Shown piece by piece: positions 1 through 40,309 of a stretch of DNA of 64,000 nucleotides. The stretch spans positions 82,524,001-82,588,000 of the forward strand of contig NC_045696.1 of NCBI RefSeq assembly GCF_009834535.1. The letters are read 5' to 3'. The notes below the pieces were generated by a model. That model saw only the letters and a list, made by a program, of their open reading frames with translations. It did no database searches and was not told the DNA's origin. Both the position numbers and the translations under genes were made by a program. Source of the stretch: Camelus ferus. Lineage: Eukaryota. Numbering within the stretch: the stretch's first letter is position 1; every line of letters starts with the position of its first letter.

Positions 1-850
1 ATTATACTCTGCGGCCATCTATACCACTGCTTGGTCAAAACATGTTTTCACATCTTTCATATAATCCTTCTAGTAATACAAGAACATTTATGCTGCACCT
101 TTTATAAAGAACCACAGTGCTTACACAGGCCCATATATCTATGTAAATACCATAAGTTTGTCTTTAAAACAGCCTTGAAACAACTTGTAAATCCCCAGTA
201 GCATCTCAGAATTCTGAGGGTAGGAACTTTTTTTTCCCCACTAAAACCGGGATCACCTTTCAGGCAGCCCCTGTGAGTTGGGGCAGGCTACTGTTAGAGT
301 GCGGAGGATGCGAGGCAGAGGAGAGGTATGCTGGCCAGGCAGAACAACTAGCCAGTGCCAAGCCTTCTCTTAATGAGGCAGGACGGCTTGAAAAGTGACG
401 CCCTGAATGGCAGTCAGTGCTGTTGTCTTAGAACAAGGAGAGCGCAGGAGGAAGTGTGCCATCCTGTGCCACCGACTCTTGGCAGGAGAAGTTTGGGAGC
501 CCGTGTCCATGACAAGGGAACACATTGGAACCATCTGCAGAGTTGCAGACAAAGACAGGCATTGGGCTTTTGCAACAAGCAGAAGCTGGTGAACCAGCTC
601 AGTAGGGGCTTCCCGGAGGATGTAGAGAGCACAGAGAGGCATGTCCAGCTAGGGCAGGGTTACAGCAATATGGCAACGGCAATGGTGTTTCCCTCCAGAA
701 TTTCAGGAAACTGGTTGCTACCAAGATGTCAGGCAGATTTGATGGACATGATGTGAAGCAGAGCTATCATTTGTTTGTTGGTTTAATTTCCACAAGAATA
801 GGTCTCAATCAACCTCACTTTCTGGGGTTCATGGTCACTAAGTTCTAAAG

Positions 851-2982: not shown

Positions 2983-3168
2983 CCCGGCAGACAGAACACT
3001 ATGTGCAAAGCTCTGAAGTCAGAAGCTGCCAAAGGAAGGAGCTGAAGGTGAGGGGGACAGGATCTGACTGGGGAGAGGGGACCAGGTTATGCAGGACCTT
3101 GAAGGTCTTACTGAGGACATGGGTCTCTGTTCTGAGAGCTCTGAGGAAAGTGGTATGATCTGACCTGT

Positions 3169-3322
3169 TTTTTTTTTTTCCTTTGTTTTATTTATTTATT
3201 TTGGCTTTTTTTGGGGGGGGGTAATTAGGTTTATTTATTTTTTAGTGGAGGTACTGGAGATTGAACCCAGGACCTCGTGCATGCTAAGCACACTCTCTAC
3301 CGCTGAGCTCGACCCTCCCCCC
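3169..3322 (-). mobile_element. Camelid tRNA-Ala-derived SINE (Vic-1 type), full length, with 14-bp TSD
   Basis: Minus strand reads GGGGGGAGGGTCGAGCTCAGCGGTAGAG...TTAGCATGCACGAGGTCCTGGGTTCAATCTCCAGTACCTCC (A box, AGC anticodon, B box), then AAATAAACCTAATTAC-C-run and an A-rich tail. TSD atgatctgacctgt at 3155-3168 and 3323-3336. Confidence 0.92.
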
Positions 3323-3804
3323 ATGATCTGACCTGTATTTAAGAGATCATCCTGGCTGCTGTACAGACAATGAATCTGGGGAGGAAACCCACTGGGGGCT
3401 CTTACAGTATCCAGAAGAGAATGTAAATTCTGAAATAATTGTCTAATTTACCAGACTTGTGTTTTCTCCATGGTGTAAATACATTTATAGAATATATTTG
3501 TCAGTGTCAAAGGAATAGCCATAGCTACTCTTTCCTAATTATAAAATATAAGCCCCATATTAATAGGAACTCTATTCTCTTGCTTGGGCCAAAAACTGAA
3601 GAAGGCTGTTTTGGTTGGATAGTGAGAGAAAACAGCATCTGAATTTAAATGCAACCAATTAATTAATTAATCACCACACCCACCAACAGTTAGTTGCTCA
3701 TCTGTTTGATATTGGATATAGAACTTCATCCACACTGAGAGAGAATCCTAGACTTGACAGCTCTGATTTCTTCTATTGTTCTATAGCTGAGTGAGCATGG
3801 GATC

Positions 3805-13361: not shown

Positions 13362-13410
13362 TGCCAAGAGTAATACAGATTGCAAGTGAAGAGTGAGGAG
13401 AAAGCCCAGG
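13362..13410 (+). other. Candidate 49-nt non-coding exon
   Basis: ~38-nt polypyrimidine tract ending tttcccag| and AGG|gtgagt donor; stops in all three frames. Confidence 0.25.
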
Positions 13411-21570: not shown

Positions 21571-22089
21571 AATCCATGGATGGAAATCCTCCAGTGGCTC
21601 ACACTGGGCCCTCATTATTTTAAGGATGTCCTTATGAGAACCAGCTGCCATCAAATGTGGCTTAGGGATTCTCCTAGTGTAATGTTTTGAAAATAGAAGT
21701 AACCTTAGAGTTTTTGTCTAACAGATTATTGAAAAACTTTGAGGTTCAGAGAGTGTTTTAGGCTGATTTGAAGAGGTAGAGTCTATTCATATAAGCCCTA
21801 AAGGACACTCCCTCTACTGGATAACGGTCCTGCGACAAGCTAGCAGTATCTCCACACCACCCCCAACCTGCCCCTGCCAACCTCATCACTTAAAATGTCT
21901 GCATGCTTGGGCACATATTGAGTGAGTCTTCACAAAATTCAGATACAATCTGCCTAAAAGCAGTAGCAAAATGACCATGTTTGGAGAAATCCATTGTCTT
22001 ATAAATGAAACTAAAGGATCATGAACCCAACTATTGATAATTTCTAACTGAAATTCAACATCTGGGCAAGATTTCAGAGCTCTATTTCC

Positions 22090-22381
22090 TCCCCGAGCCA
22101 AATGGCTCATCTGGAAATAGTCGGCCCGAGATTTAAGAGGTGATAGTGGTCCCTTTACTCATTTAGTCCTTGGTCTCCCTGGAGCTTCCTGCCAGGGCAA
22201 TGATGAGTGATAACTGCTTAGGGGTTTTTGTAGTGTGGTCCATGGTATTTTAGGTGTTTGCTTTGACCACTAACTGATTTCATCTAGAACAATATCCATG
22301 ATGACAATTGGTGACTTTTAACTGACTTTGAGTTGATTGGTGACCTGAAGAGAAAGTTCCTATTGCCTATTCCATGAAACA
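22090..22381 (-). mobile_element. LF-SINE (LFSINE_Vert) relic
   Basis: Five collinear minus-strand blocks match the recalled LF-SINE consensus: ggaataggcaatagga, tttctcttcaggtcac, tgaaatcagttagtggtc, ccacactacaaaaacc, gggagaccaaggactaaatgag. Confidence 0.7.
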
Positions 22382-22659
22382 TATAACTTCCTACCATCCA
22401 CATAGACTCTGTTCATTTCCCCACAGATTGCAGTATTTATTATTTGTTATTGCTTAGGTTTCAAAATAAATTTGGGTTATGATTTCAAATTCTTTAGCTG
22501 ATCAAAAGCAACTAGTGTCCAGATGTCCTCTGTGAGCCTGCCCTTAAAGAACTGATTTAAGGAAAATATTACTTCCCTAGGAAGATATTCTTATCTACCT
22601 GACTTTGGAAATACAGATAAAAATGTTGCACACCTTTATGGTAAACAGAATAGGATTTG

Positions 22660-22735
22660 CTAGTATGATGATTAAGAGTTTGGTTCTGGAATCAGACAAA
22701 CCTGGGCTGGATTCCTGGGCCTGCCACTTGTGGTT
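22660..22735 (+). mobile_element. MIR 5' fragment
   Basis: gattaagagtttggttctggaatcagacaaacctgggctggattcctgggcctgccactt. Confidence 0.7.
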
Positions 22736-25125: not shown

Positions 25126-25471
25126 AGCACTGAACTTTTGCAAACCCCAAACTATAAAGGTATGTGCTGTATTACTGACATGATTTCCTTCTGACCCTCT
25201 CAACTCCTTTCCCTCTAAAATTAGATTTTCTTGTTTGGGTTAGTAAAGCATGTGGTTGCAGACCCTCGTAGAGCTATTGTGAAATATTGGGTCTGTATTT
25301 CCGGAGGCGTTAGCCACTGGCTGTAACCCAATTCTGATGGGAGAGGGAGCTATGCCTATGACTGACGTTACAAATGCAATGAAAGTAAAACAACCCTCTG
25401 AAAAAAGAGCAGGCAGTTATTTTTCAGTGGTGGGAAGAAGTTGCAGGTGTGCCTGGTGTTTTTAAAGCTCT
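25126..25471 (+). mobile_element. Possible AmnSINE1 (Deu-domain SINE) relic
   Basis: Collinear short matches to recalled consensus: agcactgaac, tgtgctgt, tgtggt..agaccc, ccgg..gcca, gtaa..attctg, tttcagtggtggg, gtttttaaagctct; overall identity is low. Confidence 0.4.
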
Positions 25472-26534
25472 CGTTATTGATCTTGTCTTAAGACTTACAA
25501 ATAGAACCATTAATGTGTCAGTGTTACCCGGATAACAGATGATTATTGTCCATCTTTAAACTGTACTTAGCACTAAAATGTATATGTAATGCACGCAAAA
25601 AGGCCAGCTTTATCACACTTCCTCAAGGTTTTACAGGAAAGAATTCATTCTTTCATTCATTTTCCCCTGGGCCTGCCTCCCTCCTCACTACCCTCATCCC
25701 ACATTTATTCCCTTTGCTAATTGATAGAAATTCCTACTGGACATTCCAGCCACTAGCTGGCAGACGTAACAAACACAACATTTACAGCTCTACAGTGGAA
25801 ATATCTTAGAATACAACTTTTTAACCTTCAGTAACTACCACTTTCAGAACTATGTAGCTCATCATAGTGAGTGAAGCAAGTTAAAGTTGTATAACACCCA
25901 GGGATTTTAGTTCAATTTCACTGTAACCTCAATTTTACTACCATAAGTCAAGTTTGTCATCAGAGAGCTCCATATTACACTTGATGGGCAGATTCATCTG
26001 CCTTCACTCTGTGAATGCGGTCGATGCTTGAGCAGCAAGGCAGTAATACATCTTTATTTAAGCCAAGTCTTGGATTCAGTCCCAAATGACATAATCTCCC
26101 ATAAGCTGGGGAATCTGGTCTAGACCACAGAATGTTATGGGGCGCACACCTGTTCAGAGAAGCGTAGTCAAAGGATAGTTAACGGCATTTCATTGTCATC
26201 TTGGGGGAACAGAGTAAGTCACACTTGGCAGGAGTTGGACCTGGGCCTAGAGCTACTTGACATTCTTATATACAAATTAGAATATTGGGTAGGATTGTTG
26301 CAAGGGGTCTGTGTTTTAAGTGAGACTGAAGCCCCAGTTTTTATACGGTGCTACTATCTGTGTCCAGCATAGGAGGGGTTAGATGGAGAAACTAAGGCAG
26401 AAGAACAAACTATGGTTTGTAGCCATTCAGATTCCTGGGGAAGGAGATGATTGTGAAGGAAGAAGTGAAAAAGAAGAGCTGGGGCTCTGTAGAGGAAAAA
26501 TTATCAAAGACTCAACGATTTCACCAAGTTTGTC

Positions 26535-27680: not shown

Positions 27681-29103
27681 AAAATCTAAACAATAAAAAA
27701 AGATAGGTTATACTATTAATTACTGTTGTAACCTACTGAAATTCAAATATACCCAAGTTCCATTGTTTTGAATCAAGTCTCCTGTGATACTTACAAATAT
27801 AGCACAGAAAATGAATCTAAAGAGTACTTTGCTTAAGAAAAAAATCTGCTCCTTGACTCTAACATAAAAACATTTCAAAAATAATGATTGAAAAAAAATC
27901 AGGTTATGGATACTAGTTAGAATTTGCTTGCTATCTTTGACACAGGTCTCTATTTTAACTGGGGTTCATTTTTTAATGCTTGAATTTGTTTTTCTTGAAT
28001 CAGTGGCACAGGGTGACTACCGCCTTCCTGCTGAAGGTTTTTCCCAACACCTTTGCCACGTCTGCCCTCAGGGGATTTCAGATAACAAGCAGCACCGAGT
28101 CAGCCCTCTAAATTTGGCCCTTCTCCCTGCCACAGTGCTTAGCAGATTGGGTGAAAATGTGTCCGCAGAGATTAGATATTCCAGTGACCACAGTGCTTTT
28201 TTCTGCCCTGAAAGCTATCTCCCGAATCAGCCCTCTACCTCTGGTTTATCGGGAGGAGAGTACAGACAGATAACATCCTTGCGATGTGACCCTGACCTTT
28301 GTCAACCTTTGTTAAGGCTTCATCTGAAGTCAGGCTTAATGTTTGTAAACAGGATGTAATTAAGGCTGGGAACTGACAGGGTCTGACATTAAGACAATGC
28401 AGAGCTGGCAGGGAATGGTCTGTCAGATGTCAGCTCACATTGTGTTCTAAGTGCCTTCATAATAATTAGTGTCCTCTGTCTGAAGGAAGTTCACTCAACT
28501 TGGATTAATCTGTCACAGCGTGGAGGCCATCCTTGGGAGGGCAAGTGTTTCCTCTGATAAACCTTAGAACAAGTATGAGAAAAAAAGCTAAGAGGCTCAA
28601 AAGAAAACTGTGAAAGTCAAGACTGCTGGTGACAGGTGCTGCCTGAAAATTAGAAACAGGAAGTAGGAAAAAAAAAAGCTCCCCCTCCACATCCCAATCG
28701 CCAAGTGAACGTAAGGGTTCTCTGATCAGAAGTGGCTACAGACATCCCGGGCCTGCTGGTTTGGATACCGTGAACAGACACAGGAAGATGAGTGTTCAGA
28801 AAAGCCTGAGCATAAACATATTGTTTGGCTTTTGCCCTTAACTAGCATAATGCGCTGGCAGGAGGTTGCCTACACCCTATAAGAGGATTTACACTTAACA
28901 TGAAATTGATCCAAAGAGGCTGAATTCACCTTCTGTTATTAGAAGACATTTGCTGAGTGTCTTCTGGTAGCTGGTATGGTACAAAGTGAGTCAAGGGATG
29001 TTGTACCCATCTTCTTGACTAGGCATGTGAGCCCCATGCTGACAGACTGCTATCCATAGCCTTTTAAGTCTACTTGGACTCATCCTGCATCTCAAAAGTT
29101 GTC

Positions 29104-31265: not shown

Positions 31266-34200
31266 GCAGTGTTTCCAAAGAAAAGATAAGGACTATCAAG
31301 TTAAGCTAACAATAGGTTAATTTTTCATTACCCTGGATTAAACCACCCATTTATTTGTAGGCTGTATCTTGAAGACTATGATTAGTTTAGGAGAAAGAGA
31401 AGTTTGCGTTAGCACTGGCAAAGGAACAGATCTTTTCAGAAGCACCATCTGAGCCCAAGTGATAAACCATTTTCTACAGGACTAGAGCTAACACTTATCC
31501 AATGCATACGGTAGATATTTGACCAATAGTTTGTATCACTGGCATTGTGATTGAGACACATTTTTGATGTAATCCAGATAACAAAGAGATGTGTTTCTCA
31601 TGATTGGTGAAGACAGCGGTTATTTCCTTCTTGATGAAAGACTAGACTTAAACATAGCTTGAGACCCATGAGGGACAGTTAAGTGAAAGCACATGCAAAT
31701 TTTAAAAGCAAACGGCTTTCTAACTACCACAACCTAGAAGAAGAGGGAGAAGAAAAGAGGCACGGGGGGCGGGCACACACACTGTTCACAATTGGAGAAA
31801 TACGAGCCAAACTGGGACCAAGTAACCCCACTTAACCTAGGGACCCTTCTTAACTAAATGTAGTGCTATTCTTCCAGGGAGTACCCCCCCCCCAACCCCC
31901 GCAAGGAGAACTGTCATTGGTGGCTCTGAGATGAAAGAGGAAAAGACAGAGAAGCATCTTACAGAATTAACTTTGATGCCCTAAATACATTTTCTGGGGC
32001 ATGTACATATATAACCCCTGGAAGAAAAAAACAAAGCAGAGCATATAAGGCTTTTTTAAGATAGGTAAATCATTTTCTTTTTAAATGAAATTCAGTTTGA
32101 CTGCATGAAATATGAACAGTAATTAAATGCACAGTCTGTGGGCCTTCCATACTTTAAAGCGCTCTCTTAAAAAGAAAAAAAGAGTACTCACCTCAGACAG
32201 GCCAATTACCCAAGAATGATGAAGTCAAGAGGAAAGTCGCTAAATTTCTTTACTTGAGTGATCACAACCCCAGCCCGTGATTAGTCCCCACGGCACCAGC
32301 GGGGATGTGGCAGGGACACTCACATTGGAAGACTTCAAATAGTCATTTCCTTGGTTAAAATAAAATCTGACTGCACTAAATAGACAGTTTTTAATCTCAA
32401 TTGGACATCTGAAGATTTCTCAAGCTGTTGTTGGCTGCGGCAGAAACAAATTTTTCTGCTTTGTTGATTAAACCACTGGTCTCCACCATTGCTTATCGGC
32501 CTGCAACGAGCTGTTCTTTTTAATTAAAAGTGAGCCACCACGAGAGAGCAATTAACAGCTAGTAATTACTGTGCTCTTCAGAACGGCAACGTTTTGCCTT
32601 TCATTCCAATTATATAATGGACAAGTGGCTTTTTGATCTTCAAATTAGTGAGCTCTTGTCCTCCTTGTTTGGAGGCAGAATTGGCAGGTTAATGATGGCC
32701 TGTGGGGGCACTCTTTCCTCTGACTGATGGGAGGAGAGAAACGCTGGGAAAGAAGGCAGAGAGAGGCTTTAAACACCGGCAGTTCCACCTTCATAATCAA
32801 GATGGAGAAAGAGCCCTGATTTTCAGAAGGTTTTGATGAAGAGGAAAGATAAGCTTACATGGAGCCTCTAAAGAGCATCATGGGCTTCCTGTCTTTCTCT
32901 CCTCCAGCAAAAGGTGGCCATGTTTTAAAACATGGGAAAGTGGTTTTAGACTGTGATGCTTTGGTATGCCTTTGATAAGGGCATGGAATAGTACATGTTG
33001 GTGAAAAATAGTTGCTCTAGGGCTAGGGAAAGATTTTGATTTTATTTAAGCTTGTTTTGCTTCTTTGATTATCCCAAGGTATCTTATCCTTGGATACAAT
33101 AGGATCTTATCTTACTTGATAATTTATTACCAGATCTGGTAGAAACATTGAAGTTATAAATAGAGGAAGTTGGACGTTTTTGATTTCCTGTATCTTATCT
33201 CTGCTTTTCATTTAACAGCATAGAGGGAGTTCTATTGCAGAACACTCATGGACCAATTGCTCCCCATACCCTTCCCCTTTGGGCATAGCTTCCCTTTTGG
33301 ACCAGTTATTAGTTGCGGATACAAAATTGCAGGTGCAATCGGCCAGCTATTCTTCCACGTCTTACTTTTATGCTCCTGTTTAGAGTGTGATAATTATGGC
33401 AGTCTTGTAGCCACAGGTCACTATATGGGGGCATTCCTTTAGACAGTGTAAGTACTAATAGCATGAAACCCTTGATTTCTAGATACATAAGACTACAGCC
33501 CAGCCTTAAGAGGCAGAACTGACAAACTTCTGCCTCATCATTCACTTGCCATCGCCATTGTTGGTAGAATCTTGCAAATCTTATTTAGGGAGCCAGGTTG
33601 GTTGGTGATGAGGATCATTTTGTTGCATATAGACTGAAAACAAATGATGAAACATGAAAGAAATTTGAGTTTGTGAGTGTGGAATCTGGTTTATGAGCTC
33701 TTTTCAATGCTGTTCCATGAAAATAGCATGCAATAGAATTATAGCATGTGCACGTAACAGCCACAACTCAATCTCTCAAGATTTCTGAAAAGACTTTTTT
33801 TTTGTGAGGAATTATAGCAATTAATCAAATAGGAAAAATAAGTACATTCATGTTTATTTAAATTGCACTACAGGACATCTTCATTAAGCACTTTACCGAC
33901 AGAATTCTTAATTGTTTGATTTTAGCATTTTCATAGGGATAGAGCCCCACATGAAGTGAGGATTGTCTAGCAAGGTTGAATCTACTCCCACCAAACACCA
34001 AGTCTGGTCAATCCCTCCATTAGGTCATGAAGTCATTCAATGAAAAAAAATAAGTTTTTTAAGAACTGTTCTCACTTCTTCCCAGAAAAGGACATTGTTG
34101 AGCCATCTTGAGCAGGGTGTGCCTTTTGATCTATTTTCAGAGATGGTAAGCCTAAGTCTGTTAGTAACTTGTGGGATTCAATTTTAGGATGGCTAGACAT

Positions 34201-34670: not shown

Positions 34671-35135
34671 TTTAAGAGATCTCTGGGATAACTTTAAGTG
34701 TGCCAGCATTCACATTATAGGGGTCCCAGAAGGAGACAAGAAAGAAGGGATCAAAAATGTATTTGAAGAAATTATGTCTGAAAACACCTGAAGAAGGAAA
34801 CAGAAAGCTAGGCACAGGAAGCACAGAGGGTCCCAAACAAGATGAACCCAAACAGAGCCACACCAAGACATATCATAATTAAAATGGCAAAAGTTAAAGA
34901 TACATAGAGAATTCTAAAGGCAGCAAGAGAAGAATGAAGAGTCATATACAAGTGAATCTTTGGCATGATATATTCAGTGTGCTGAAAGGGGGAAACTGCA
35001 ACCTAGGATACTCTACCCAGCAAGATTATCATTTAGAATAGAAGGAGAGACAAAGAACTTCTCAGACAAGTAAAAACTAAAAGAGTTCATCAGTAATAAA
35101 CCTGCCCTAAAAGAAACGTTAAAGGGTCTTCTCTA
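34671..35135 (+). pseudogene. L1 ORF1p C-terminal remnant
   Basis: Translates to L1 ORF1 motifs (IIGVPEG, PRHIIIKM, ILYPARLSF) with stops and deletions. Confidence 0.85.
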
Positions 35136-35587
35136 AGTGGAAAAGAAGTAAGAATCTATAGGAAAGAAAAAAAATCCCACTAGGAAAGGCAAGTATACAG
35201 TAAGAACTGAGGATCAATCATTTAAATAAGCCAGTACAAAGATTAAAAGACAAAATTTATAAAAGCAAGTATAACTACAATAAACAGGGATAACCATGAA
35301 GATGTAAAATTTGACATCAAAAACACAAAATTTTGGGAAGGAGAGTAAATCTTTCAGCATATGTTTGAATTTAAATGACTACCAGTTTGAAAAAAGATAT
35401 AATTATAGATCAACATATATGAACCCAATGGTAACCACAAATCAAAAACCTACAATAGACACACAAAAACTGAAAGAAAGGAATACAAGCATAATACTAA
35501 AGAAAATCATTAAACCACAAGGGAAGAAACTAACAGAAGAAATGAACAGAAAAGAATTACAAAAACAACTGGAAAACAAGTAATAAA

Positions 35588-38390
35588 ATGACAATAAATA
35601 CATACCTATAAATAGTTACTTTAAATGTCAATGGACTAAATGCTCCAATCAAAAGACATAGGGTAGCTGTTTGGATAAAAAAATGCAAGATCCTTCTATA
35701 TGCTGTCTACAAGAGACTTCAGAGCTAAAGACACACAGACTGAAATAAGGGATGGGGAAAGACATTTCATGCAAATGGAAATGACAAGAAAACAAGGAGA
35801 GCAATACTCATAAAAGACAAGATAGACTTTAAAACAAAGGCTATATTTAAAATAACACAAGAAACCAAAGGCTATAACAACAACAACAACAAAAAAGAAG
35901 GACATTATATAATGATAAAAATATCAGTGCAACAAGAAGATGCTATACTCGTTAACACATACGCACCCAATACAGGAGCACCTAAATATATGAAGCAAAT
36001 ACTAACAGACATAAAGGGAGAAACTAGCAATAATATAATAATAATAGAGGACTTTAACACCCCACTTACATCACTGGACAAATCATCCAGACAGAAAATA
36101 AGGCAAAGTGGTTTTAAATGATGCAATAGGCTAGTTGGACTTAATAGATATCTATAGGACATTAAATCCAAAAACAGCAGAATACACATTCTTTTCAAGA
36201 ACACACATTCTTTTCAAGAACACATAGAATGTTCTCCAGAATAAATTAGATGCTAGGCCACAAAACAAGTCTCAACAAATTTAAGAGGATAGAAATTATA
36301 TCAAGCATTTTTTTCCTGACCACAACAGTATGAAAATAGAAATCAATTATAGAATGAAAAATGGAAAAAGAACAAACATGTGGAGTCTGAACAACATGCT
36401 ACTAAAAAGCTAATGGGTCAGTGAAGAAATAAAGAAGAAATCAGAAAATACCTTGAAAATGTAAAAAGAATTAAGAGTAACATATGATTTTTTTAATTAA
36501 AAAAAAAAAAATACCTTGAGACAAATGAAAATGGAAACACAACACTCTGTAATATATGGGATGCAGCAAAAGCAGTTCTAAGAGGGAGGCTCATAGAGAC
36601 ACAGACCTTCCTCAAGAAACAAGAAATATCTCAAATAAACCACCTAATCAACCACCTAAAGGAGTTAGAAGGAGAAGAACAAACAAATCCTAAAGTCAGC
36701 AGAAGAAACGGTCAATGAAACTAAGAGCTAGTTTTTTGAAAAACAAACAACAATTGATAAAATAGTATTGGAAATCCTAGGCACAGCAATCAGTCAAGAA
36801 AAAGAAATAAAGTGCATTGGAGTTGGAAGGGAAGAAGTAAAACTGTCACTATTTGCAAATGACATGACACTCCACCAAAAACTATTAGAACTAACGAATA
36901 CAGCAAAGTTGCAGGATACAGGATTATTATACAGAAATCTTTTGCTTTTCTATACTTTGATAATGAACTATCAGAAAGAGAAAGTAAAACAATCCATTTA
37001 AAGTAGCATCAAATAAAACAAAATACCTAGGAAAGTATAACTAAGGAGGTGAATGACTCATATTCTGAAAATTATAAAACATTGACTAAGGAATCTGAAG
37101 ATGATACAATGAAACAGAAAGATTTCCTGTGCACTTGGATTGGAAGAATTAATATTGTTAAAAGGGCCATACTACCCAAAGCAACCTACAGATTTAATGC
37201 AATCCCTGTCAAAATACCCATGACATTTTTTCATAGAACTAGAGCAAATAATCTTAAAATTCATGTGGAAGCATACCCTGAATTGCCAAACCAATCTTGA
37301 GAAAAAAGAAAAAAGCTGGAGAGGTATCACCCTCCTAGACTTCAGGTTATACTACAAAGCTACAGTAATTAAAACAGCATGGCACTGACACAAAAACAGA
37401 CACATAGATCAATGGAATAGAATAGAGAGCCCTGAAATAAGCCCACACACCTATGGTCAATTAATCTATGACAAAGGAGGCAAAAATATACAATGGGGAA
37501 AGGACAATTTCTTCAATAAGTGGTTCTAGGAAAACTGAACAACTACATGTGAAACAGTGATATTAGAACATTTTCTTATGCCAAATACAAAATAAACTCA
37601 GAATGGATTAAAGACCTAAATATAAGACCTGAAATCATAAAACTCCTAGACGAGAAGATAGGCAGAACACTTTTTGACATAAATTGTAGCCATATTGTTT
37701 TTTGGATTTATCTCCTAAGGCAAAAGAAATAAGTTCAAAAATAAACAAATAGGACTTAATTAAACTTTAAAGCTTTTTCATAGCAAAGGAAACCATTGAC
37801 AAAGTGAAAAGAGAAATCTACAGAATAGGAGAAAATATTTGCAAATGATATGACAGACAAAGTGATAATATCCAAAATATATAAACAGCTCATACAACTC
37901 GATTAAAAAAACCATAAACAACCCAATCAAAAATGGGCAGAAGACATACATAGACATTTTTCCAAAGAAGACATACAGATGGCTAACAGGCACAAAAAAG
38001 ATGCTCAACATTGTGAATTATTAGAGAAGTGCAAATCAGAACAACAATGAGATATCACCTTATAACTGTCAAAATTGCTATCATCAAAAAGTCTACAAAC
38101 AACAAATGTTGGTGAGGATGTGCAGAAAAGGGAATCCTTGTACACTGTTGGTGGGAATGTAAATTGGTGCAGCCACTATGGAAAATCATATGGAGAGTCT
38201 CCCCAAATTAAAAATAGAACTACCATATGATCTAGCAATTCCACTCTTGGGTATATATCTGGGGAAAATTAAAACACTAATTCAAAAAGGTACATGCACC
38301 TCAATGTTTATAGTAGCACTATTTACAACAGACAAGATACAGAAGTGAACCAAGTGTTTCTTAACAGACAAATGGATAAAGAAGATGTAG
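35588..38390 (+). pseudogene. L1 ORF2p (endonuclease/RT) remnant, dead
   Basis: TLNVNGLNAPIKRHR, NTYAPNTGAP..DFNTPL (EN), KLSLFANDM (FADD motif mutated), WIGRINIVK..LPKA.YRFNAIP; frameshifts and a large deletion at ~36761. Confidence 0.92.
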
Positions 38391-38865
38391 TTTATGTACA
38401 ATGGAATATTACTCAGCCATAAAAAAGAACAAAATCCTGCCATTTGCAGCAATGTGGATGGACCTAGAGAATATTATGTTTAATGAAATAAGTCAAACAC
38501 AGAAAGACAAATACTCCATGATATCACTTATGTGTGGAATCTAAAAAAATAAAACAAATGAATGTATATAGCAAAACCAGAATAAACTCTCAGATCTAGA
38601 AAATAAACTAGTGGTTATCAGTGGAGAGAGGGAAGGGCAAGATAGGGGTATGAGATTAAGAGAAATAAACTACTCTAAAAAATAGATAAGCAACAAGGAT
38701 ATATTGTCTAGCACAGGAAATTATAGCCATTATCTTATAATAAATTTTATGGAGTATATTCTATAAAAATACTGAGTCACTATGCTGTACACCTGAAAAT
38801 AATATAATATTGTAAATCAATAATATTGCAATACAAAAAGTGTTGCATGATCGTCTTTATCTTTG

Positions 38866-39997: not shown

Positions 39998-40238
39998 TTT
40001 TCTTTCTTTATTTCCCTTCCTTTCTTCCTTCCTTTCCCTTCCTTTCTTCCTTCCTTCCCTTCTTTCTTTCTCTCACTCTTTCTCTCATTTCTTTCTTTCT
40101 CGCATTTTTCTTTCTTTCTCTCATTTCTTTCTTTCTTTCTTTCTCCTTTCTTTCTTTCTCCTCTTTCTTTCTTTCTTTCTTCTTCCTTCCTTCCTTCCTT
40201 CCTTCCTTCCTTCCTTCCTTCCTTCCTTCCTTCTTTCT

Positions 40239-40298
<60 letters not shown>

Positions 40299-40309
40299 TC
40301 ATCTTTCTT
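39998..40309 (+). repeat. Compound (TTTC)n/(TTCC)n polypyrimidine tract, ~310 bp
   Basis: Directly visible; source of the K/E/R-rich and F/L/S-rich ORFs. Confidence 0.97.

What the first reader, a model, noticed from the sequence alone, without database searches (positions are those of the whole stretch)
22090..22381. Probable LF-SINE relic: a candidate exapted ancient retroposon
Seen: the minus strand carries five blocks in consensus order and roughly consensus spacing. They are ggaataggcaatagga (recalled consensus ggattggtaatggga), tttctcttcaggtcac (tttcacctctaggtcac), tgaaatcagttagtggtc at 22265-22282 (tgaaatgagttggtggtc), ccacactacaaaaacc at 22223-22238 (ccacatcacaaaacc) and gggagaccaaggactaaatgag at 22158-22179 (gagaggccaaggactgaatggg). 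Established: LF-SINE was active in early lobe-finned fish and tetrapods. Recognisable mammalian copies are rare and often under purifying selection, as in the ISL1 enhancer and the PCBP2 exon. Inference: this copy may be a functional enhancer or exon. The consensus is recalled from memory.
Basis: partly seen in the sequence, partly recalled or inferred. Interest (0 to 1): 0.7.

Follow-up and report, generated by a model that had tools for sequence, protein, structure and literature searches.

The report
Decayed LF-SINE retroposon relic, function untested
This 300-base stretch of non-coding mammalian DNA is a worn-down copy of LF-SINE, a very old jumping element with a few thousand known relics per mammalian genome; some relics serve as gene switches, but nothing yet shows that this one does.

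Summary
The five blocks are present at the stated places on the minus strand. A metagenome scan with block 3 returned 39 loci; two (L031, L032) look like vertebrate DNA. With the seed masked, L031's best match in the whole window is this element: 16.9 bits, against 0 of 628 window tiles and 0 of 638 reversed tiles; 133 of 216 aligned bases are identical. Published tiling probes for TUC338, the human PCBP2 LF-SINE, fall in order along L031, and five fall in order along the window copy (compared by eye). LF-SINE identity is therefore about 93% likely, although Dfam was not available and single-sequence nhmmer and Rfam uc_338 gave no significant hit. The copy is dead as a retroposon: no A/B box or tail was found. 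Exaptation is untested: no ortholog, conservation or chromatin data. An enhancer-like role (0.46) and a neutral relic (0.42) are nearly tied; a PCBP2-like exon is unlikely. Humans carry 2,367 annotated copies, so this is an ordinary member of a known family.

The parts
22085..22384 (-). Degraded LF-SINE (LFSINE_Vert-type) copy, about 300 nt; 3' end and tail not recognisable
   Evidence: Best match of L031:1380-1700 in the window, 133/216 identical over 22314-22085; seed-masked forward score 16.9 bits, 0/628 and 0/638 null tiles reach it; 5' end from a 45-nt local alignment
22340..22384 (-). Remnant of the tRNA-derived head (blocks 1-2); Pol III A/B boxes decayed
   Evidence: Collinear with L031 1384-1428, 14 bits, not significant alone; no A-box at <=1 mismatch on the minus strand and no B-box in the head; ARAGORN finds 0 genes in the window
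22283..22339 (-). Diverged linker, about 15 nt shorter than in L031; holds two Sox-type ACAAT words on the + strand (22288-22293, 22304-22308)
   Evidence: 52 of 215 window tiles have as many ACAAT words, so this is ordinary
22265..22282 (-). Block 3, best-kept core word (used as search seed)
   Evidence: 16/18 to L031 1501-1518 and 17/18 to L032; 22288-22270 matches TUC338 probe 17 at 14/20 (by eye)
22223..22238 (-). Block 4
   Evidence: Collinear with L031 1546-1562; 7/9 to the 3' half of TUC338 probe 15 (by eye)
22134..22179 (-). Block 5 and following segment
   Evidence: Collinear with L031 1600-1646; TUC338 probe 12 at 22173-22154 11/20 and probe 11 at 22153-22134 11/20, both ungapped (by eye)
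22085..22133 (-). 3' body segment, the part that in PCBP2 is read antisense as an exon (that orientation is recalled; the TUC338 primers agree)
   Evidence: 22107-22088 matches a TUC338 cloning primer at 14/19 with one gap (by eye); alignment to L031 ends at 22085
22098..22139 (+). Weak antisense candidate exon (42 nt), analogous in position to the PCBP2 exon; not supported
   Evidence: Donor at 22140 scores 2.0 and acceptor at 22098 scores 2.1 (a GAG acceptor) on my approximate matrices, both below the cut-off of 3 used for exon candidates; no host gene found

Best explanation
A retrotranspositionally dead LF-SINE copy that inserted in an early tetrapod or amniote ancestor and has survived as distal non-coding DNA under partial constraint, most plausibly as a modest enhancer component. 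Well supported: it is an LF-SINE family copy (about 0.93). Seen in the sequence: no A/B box or tail is recognisable, so it cannot mobilise. Inferred, not shown: it decayed more slowly than neutral DNA and supplies transcription-factor sites (Sox-type words, an E-box) to a neural or developmental enhancer, as described for other copies.
For: Identity: homology to L031 outside the seed; TUC338 probes 18 to 11 plus one primer in order on L031, 9-16 of 20 each, steps of 19-26 nt; five in order on the window. Constraint, family level only: annotated human copies have mean K2P 37.8, like the much younger MIR (35.7) and L2 (38.0), and are 4.55-fold enriched for Sox2 binding in neural progenitors (PMC13063735 Table S3). 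The oldest SINEs including LFSINE_Vert are enriched in DNase peaks (PMC6904449). One copy is a tested Isl1 enhancer. This copy is about 300 nt against a human mean of 121 nt (286,587/2,367). No coding exon candidate was found in the window.
Against: No locus-level evidence of constraint or activity. Only 50 of 2,367 human copies (2.1%) were Sox2-bound in progenitors. A preprint finds 401 borderline LF-SINE matches on one human chromosome, so survival alone does not imply function. The copy has a net 15-nt loss and no uc_338 hit. It has no TAAT word (0, against a tile mean of 3.6), and Sox and E-box counts are ordinary. Flanks of L031 and L032 are not orthologous to the window. Unanchored alignment and single-sequence nhmmer (E 0.02-0.1 with the seed, no hit with it masked) were not significant.
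Confidence: 0.46

Rival explanations
1. A true LF-SINE relic that now evolves neutrally. It is recognisable because it sits in the slow tail of many decayed copies, or was constrained only early on.
For: About 100-fold more relics at the detection edge are proposed in human. It is only 62% identical to another copy over the aligned part, with indels. Motif content is ordinary, there is no RNA structure (z -0.16), and 97.9% of human copies were not Sox2-bound in progenitors.
Against: An element older than amniotes that still aligns over about 300 nt, 2.5 times the mean annotated length, is hard to keep at neutral rates (inference). Family-level enrichments point to function in a good share of copies.
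Confidence: 0.42
2. An antisense cassette or poison exon, as in PCBP2, inside an unannotated + strand transcript.
For: A GT donor at 22140 lies where the PCBP2 exon ends (position inferred from the TUC338 primers and recall). The candidate exon is 42 nt with one open frame. 19 LF-SINE exons are known. Three RNA runs of 2 studies hold 85-94% of the words.
Against: Donor (2.0) and GAG acceptor (2.1) are weak. No host coding exon was found: 0 of 11 exon candidates hit Pfam.
Confidence: 0.05
3. Not LF-SINE: chance similarity, or a different ancient SINE (AmnSINE1, MIR/CORE).
For: No curated-library hit (Rfam uc_338 absent at E<=10); nhmmer not significant; L032 seed-masked is only marginal (8 of 150 random tiles); two unrelated control loci reached z about 5 (2 of 150).
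Against: L031 is the only 1 of 39 same-seed queries to beat all 150 random tiles (z 10.3). The published TUC338 oligos fall in order. uc_338 also missed L031 and was reported to miss SINE profiles of mouse, platypus and chicken. Standard alignment is known to under-score real LFSINE_Vert relics. The AmnSINE1 consensus shows none of the blocks by eye.
Confidence: 0.07

Closest known systems
LF-SINE / LFSINE_Vert (tRNA-derived SINE of lobe-finned fish and tetrapods)
   Same: Same blocks, same order and similar spacing as an independent copy (L031) and as the TUC338 oligos; divergence and length fall within the range of annotated human copies (21-42% divergence, 42-405 nt among the Sox2-bound rows seen).
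   Different: Pol III boxes, 3' end and tail are not recognisable; about 15 nt lost between blocks 2 and 3.
uc.338 / TUC338 / PCBP2 LF-SINE exon
   Same: Homologous by five published oligos in order; a GT lies at the analogous donor position.
   Different: Far from ultraconserved by sequence: no Rfam uc_338 hit, weak splice sites and no host gene seen.
ISL1 LF-SINE enhancer (Bejerano et al. 2006, seen only through reviews)
   Same: Same family, non-coding setting.
   Different: That copy is conserved in mammals, chicken and frog and was tested in transgenic mice; neither is shown here.
AmnSINE1 (5S/Deu SINE with exapted enhancers)
   Same: Ancient SINE relic, similar human copy number (2,710) and Sox2 enrichment.
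   Different: The consensus shares none of the five blocks by eye.

Membership tests
LF-SINE (LFSINE_Vert) | Significant match to the family profile (Dfam/Repbase) | not testable with these tools
   No Dfam or Repbase library is held, and no full consensus was found in the papers read.
LF-SINE (LFSINE_Vert) | Collinear homology to other copies of the family at non-orthologous loci | tested here: met
   L031 seed-masked 16.9 bits, 0/628 and 0/638 null tiles; downstream extension 1/4000; flanks unrelated. L032 is weaker (42/4000; 8/150).
LF-SINE (LFSINE_Vert) | Homology to a published LF-SINE copy (uc.338/TUC338) | tested here: met
LF-SINE (LFSINE_Vert) | Rfam uc_338 (RF02271) match | tested here: not met
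   No hit at E<=10 on the window or at E<=1 on L031; the family is in the library (180 positions, gathering 120 bits). The model describes one ultraconserved copy, so it does not define the family.
SINE (SINEBase definition) | tRNA-derived head with internal Pol III promoter | tested here: inconclusive
   Head remnant collinear with L031 but not significant alone; A/B boxes not found in the window copy's head, and L031 shows only one 1-mismatch B-box-like word; no ARAGORN gene. Expected for a decayed copy.
SINE (SINEBase definition) | 3' tail and target-site duplication | tested here: not met
   No A-run of 4 or more and no AATAAA in the 285 nt past 22085. No target-site duplication was noticed by eye; none was searched by script. 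Loss is expected at this age.
SINE (SINEBase definition) | Short (<700 bp), non-coding, dispersed repeat | tested here: met
   About 300 nt, stops in all three + frames examined, related copies at two unrelated loci. Copy number in this genome not testable.
Exapted LF-SINE enhancer (ISL1 type) | Purifying selection and syntenic orthologs in distant tetrapods | not testable with these tools
   No vertebrate genomes are held; the run search returned only near-identical DNA holders; no per-base read layout was obtained.
Exapted LF-SINE enhancer (ISL1 type) | Open chromatin, factor binding or reporter activity | not testable with these tools
   Only motif counts were possible, and they are ordinary.
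LF-SINE-derived exon (PCBP2 type) | Usable antisense splice sites inside a host gene | tested here: not met
   Weak donor and acceptor; 0 of 11 exon candidates in the window hit Pfam. Spliced reads not examined.
AmnSINE1 | 5S-derived head and Deu domain similarity | tested here: not met
   By-eye comparison with the human and chicken consensus in PMC2315648 supplement 1.

The most novel reading that the evidence does not exclude
This copy is an amniote-old, selected neural or developmental enhancer whose Sox-type sites arose after insertion in the shortened linker, acting with other conserved-looking blocks of this gene-poor window; or, less likely, it is a new PCBP2-like antisense exon.
Probability: 0.22. 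Interest if true: 0.4.

Novelty: new member of a known kind. Interest (0 to 1): 0.17.

Why it matters
If functional, it would add one more case to a short list of tested LF-SINE exaptations (ISL1 enhancer, PCBP2 exon) and offer a test of whether factor sites evolve separately in each copy, as suggested for Lhx2. It would not be a new kind of system. If neutral, it is one of thousands of relics that standard repeat annotation already reports.

Tried and rejected
Rfam on the window (only a tRNA-like SINE), on 21800-22700 (8 chance-level hits, none uc_338) and on L031/L032 (2 chance hits). No own genome is held, and the L031/L032 records are not searchable. Motif scans: viral 0 loci and 6 loci, prokaryote genomes 4 loci; these 10 loci were not aligned and are treated as chance. 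37 of 39 metagenome loci were judged chance. L031 against plasmids: no match. Unanchored local alignment missed L031 (z 0.1 and 0.3), and nhmmer/blastn with single sequences were not significant. L031 or L032 as orthologs of the window: rejected, flanks score at null level. Branch-length estimate (window 0.20, L031 0.43, L032 0.30): rejected as unreliable, because random global alignments already reach 53% identity. Gumbel p-values are too optimistic in the tail, so only ranks are used. A second relic at 201-600: chance level (12.7-14.2 bits against reversed-null maxima 12.1-13.5; not supported by L032 or the element). L031 antisense peptide against PDB: 0 hits. RNA fold: z -0.16. Paper searches for the printed core motif found 0 papers. 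Earlier scan notes: nothing relevant.

Full report
Setting. The window is non-coding mammalian DNA: GC 31-45%, CpG observed/expected 0.18, with L1 pieces and MIR/L2/MER-type relics (names recalled). A young tRNA-derived SINE with a 14-nt target-site duplication lies at 3155-3336. It looks like camelid Vic-1 (identification recalled; SINEBase lists vic-1 as a simple SINE of camels). No whole genome is held. A crude splice-site scan gave 11 exon candidates, and 0 of 11 hit Pfam, so no host gene is identified.

Observation. A degenerate block-3 motif gave 39 metagenome loci. Two, L031 and L032, have low CpG (0.32 and 0.22) and read like vertebrate DNA; no taxonomic test was run. The other 37 loci behave as chance matches and served as controls.

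Homology outside the seed. The first tests were negative: unanchored local alignment gave z 0.1 and 0.3 for L031, and single-sequence nhmmer gave E 0.02-0.1 with the seed and nothing with it masked. This is expected for two copies that each drifted far from the ancestor; standard alignment gave E 22 to a real LFSINE_Vert relic in one paper. With a transition-aware matrix, the best match of L031:1380-1700 among 636 tiles is 22314-22085 on the minus strand, 133 of 216 identical; seed-masked it still ranks first but only just (28.2 against 27.7). Anchored extension downstream of the seed scored 17.9 bits, reached by 1 of 4000 random anchors; upstream was not significant (391 of 4000); L032 downstream was reached by 42 of 4000. 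A pair-HMM summing over alignments gave 16.9 bits seed-masked, against a maximum of 12.7 in 628 window tiles and 13.5 in 638 reversed tiles. Of 39 same-seed queries, only L031 beat all 150 random tiles (z 10.3); two unrelated near-duplicate loci reached z about 5, and L032 z 2.2. The flanks of L031 and L032 do not align to the window: these are dispersed copies, not orthologs.

Naming the family. [quoted passage not shown] A published table of probes tiling TUC338, the human PCBP2 copy, gave a direct anchor (PMC5993207 supplement; compared by eye). Probes 18, 17, 16, 15, 14, 13, 12, 11 and one cloning primer fall in order on L031 at 1471, 1495, 1516, 1538, 1557, 1583, 1606, 1627 and 1658, with the first 9 bases exact for probe 18 and 16, 14, 12, 14, 12, 11, 10 and 14 of 20 for the rest. 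On the window, probe 17 (14/20), half of probe 15 (7/9), probes 12 and 11 (11/20 each, ungapped, 20 nt apart) and another primer (14/19) fall in order; probes 16, 14 and 13 match poorly. The AmnSINE1 consensus shows none of the blocks. I put LF-SINE identity at about 0.93. A Dfam scan was not possible.

Anatomy. The copy runs about 22384 to 22085: a head remnant, a linker about 15 nt shorter than in L031, the core blocks 3-5 and part of the 3' body. A/B boxes were not found in the head, ARAGORN finds no tRNA, and there is no A-rich tail, so it is inferred to be dead as a retroposon. It does not fold better than shuffles.

Function. Nothing at the locus level shows function. DNA runs of two coded organisms hold all sampled words, some possibly the source itself; three RNA runs of 2 studies hold 85-94%. 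No per-base layout was obtained, so conservation, transcription and splicing stay open. The element has two Sox-type words and two E-box words, counts matched by 52 and 71 of 215 tiles, and no TAAT. The donor analogous to the PCBP2 exon end is weak. The case for exaptation is family-level. Human copies have a mean K2P of 37.8, like the younger MIR and L2, which suggests that annotated copies are the slow ones (inference). They are 4.55-fold enriched for Sox2 binding in neural progenitors, although only 50 of 2,367 are bound, and the oldest SINEs are enriched in open chromatin. This copy is 2.5 times the mean length. Against that, a preprint reports 401 borderline matches on human chromosome 22, so survival does not prove selection. 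I give an enhancer-like, partly constrained relic 0.46, a neutral relic 0.42, an exon 0.05 and a wrong family 0.07.

Novelty. LF-SINE relics and their exaptation have been known since 2006, and standard repeat annotation would probably flag this copy. It is a new member of a known kind, interest 0.17. I could not check whether this locus is described in print, because its human ortholog is unknown.

Papers seen. Passages only: 10.1101/2025.03.14.643233, PMC4255032 (5 supplements searched without a hit), 10.1101/349290 (irrelevant), PMC11444175, PMC4233971, PMC3649676, PMC10257727, PMC5753468, PMC9148063, PMC7838692, PMC3531059 (no supplements readable), PMC6904449. PMC2315648: passages and supplement 1; one picture-only file was not readable. 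PMC13063735: passages, section 7, 43 of 55 LFSINE rows and the start of Table S3. PMC5993207: supplement passages. Bejerano et al. 2006 was not seen directly. bioRxiv supplements and figures were not visible and may hold a full consensus alignment.

Noticed in passing
window 3155-3336 (-): Young tRNA-derived simple SINE (Rfam tRNA hit 3246-3317) with a perfect 14-nt target-site duplication at 3155-3168 and 3323-3336; resembles camelid Vic-1 (recalled), suggesting a camelid genome.
   Followed up: partly
L031 1380-1700 (+); L032 about 1549-1360 (-): Vertebrate-like DNA in the metagenome collection carrying two further LF-SINE copies; L031 is clear, L032 is more decayed.
   Followed up: yes
window 62340-62780, 47240-47560, 32400-32700, 28300-28520, 25240-25600: Repeat-free blocks rich in homeobox-like words that look like conserved non-coding elements, by eye only.
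   Followed up: no
window 32191 (-) and 13362-13410 (+): A consensus-quality donor on the minus strand at 32191, and a 49-nt exon-like stretch with a long pyrimidine tract and strong donor but stops in all three frames; possibly non-coding exons.
   Followed up: no
window 25830-26060 (+): Possible second ancient tRNA-head SINE relic (B-box-like word near 25910); impression by eye, family not identified.
   Followed up: no
window 326-480 (+): Second-best match to L031 (29 bits local); at the level of the reversed-sequence null and not supported by L032.
   Followed up: yes
window about 34720-38840 (+) and about 49450-53700 (-): Internally deleted L1 (weak endonuclease Pfam hit at 35744-36118) and older antisense L1 debris (by eye and AT skew).
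   Followed up: partly
window 25422-25434 (+): 13-nt exact match to the 3' part of the AmnSINE1 consensus; about one such match is expected by chance.
   Followed up: no
window 39999-40309: Long compound (TTTC)/(TTCC) microsatellite, 77.5 copies.
   Followed up: no
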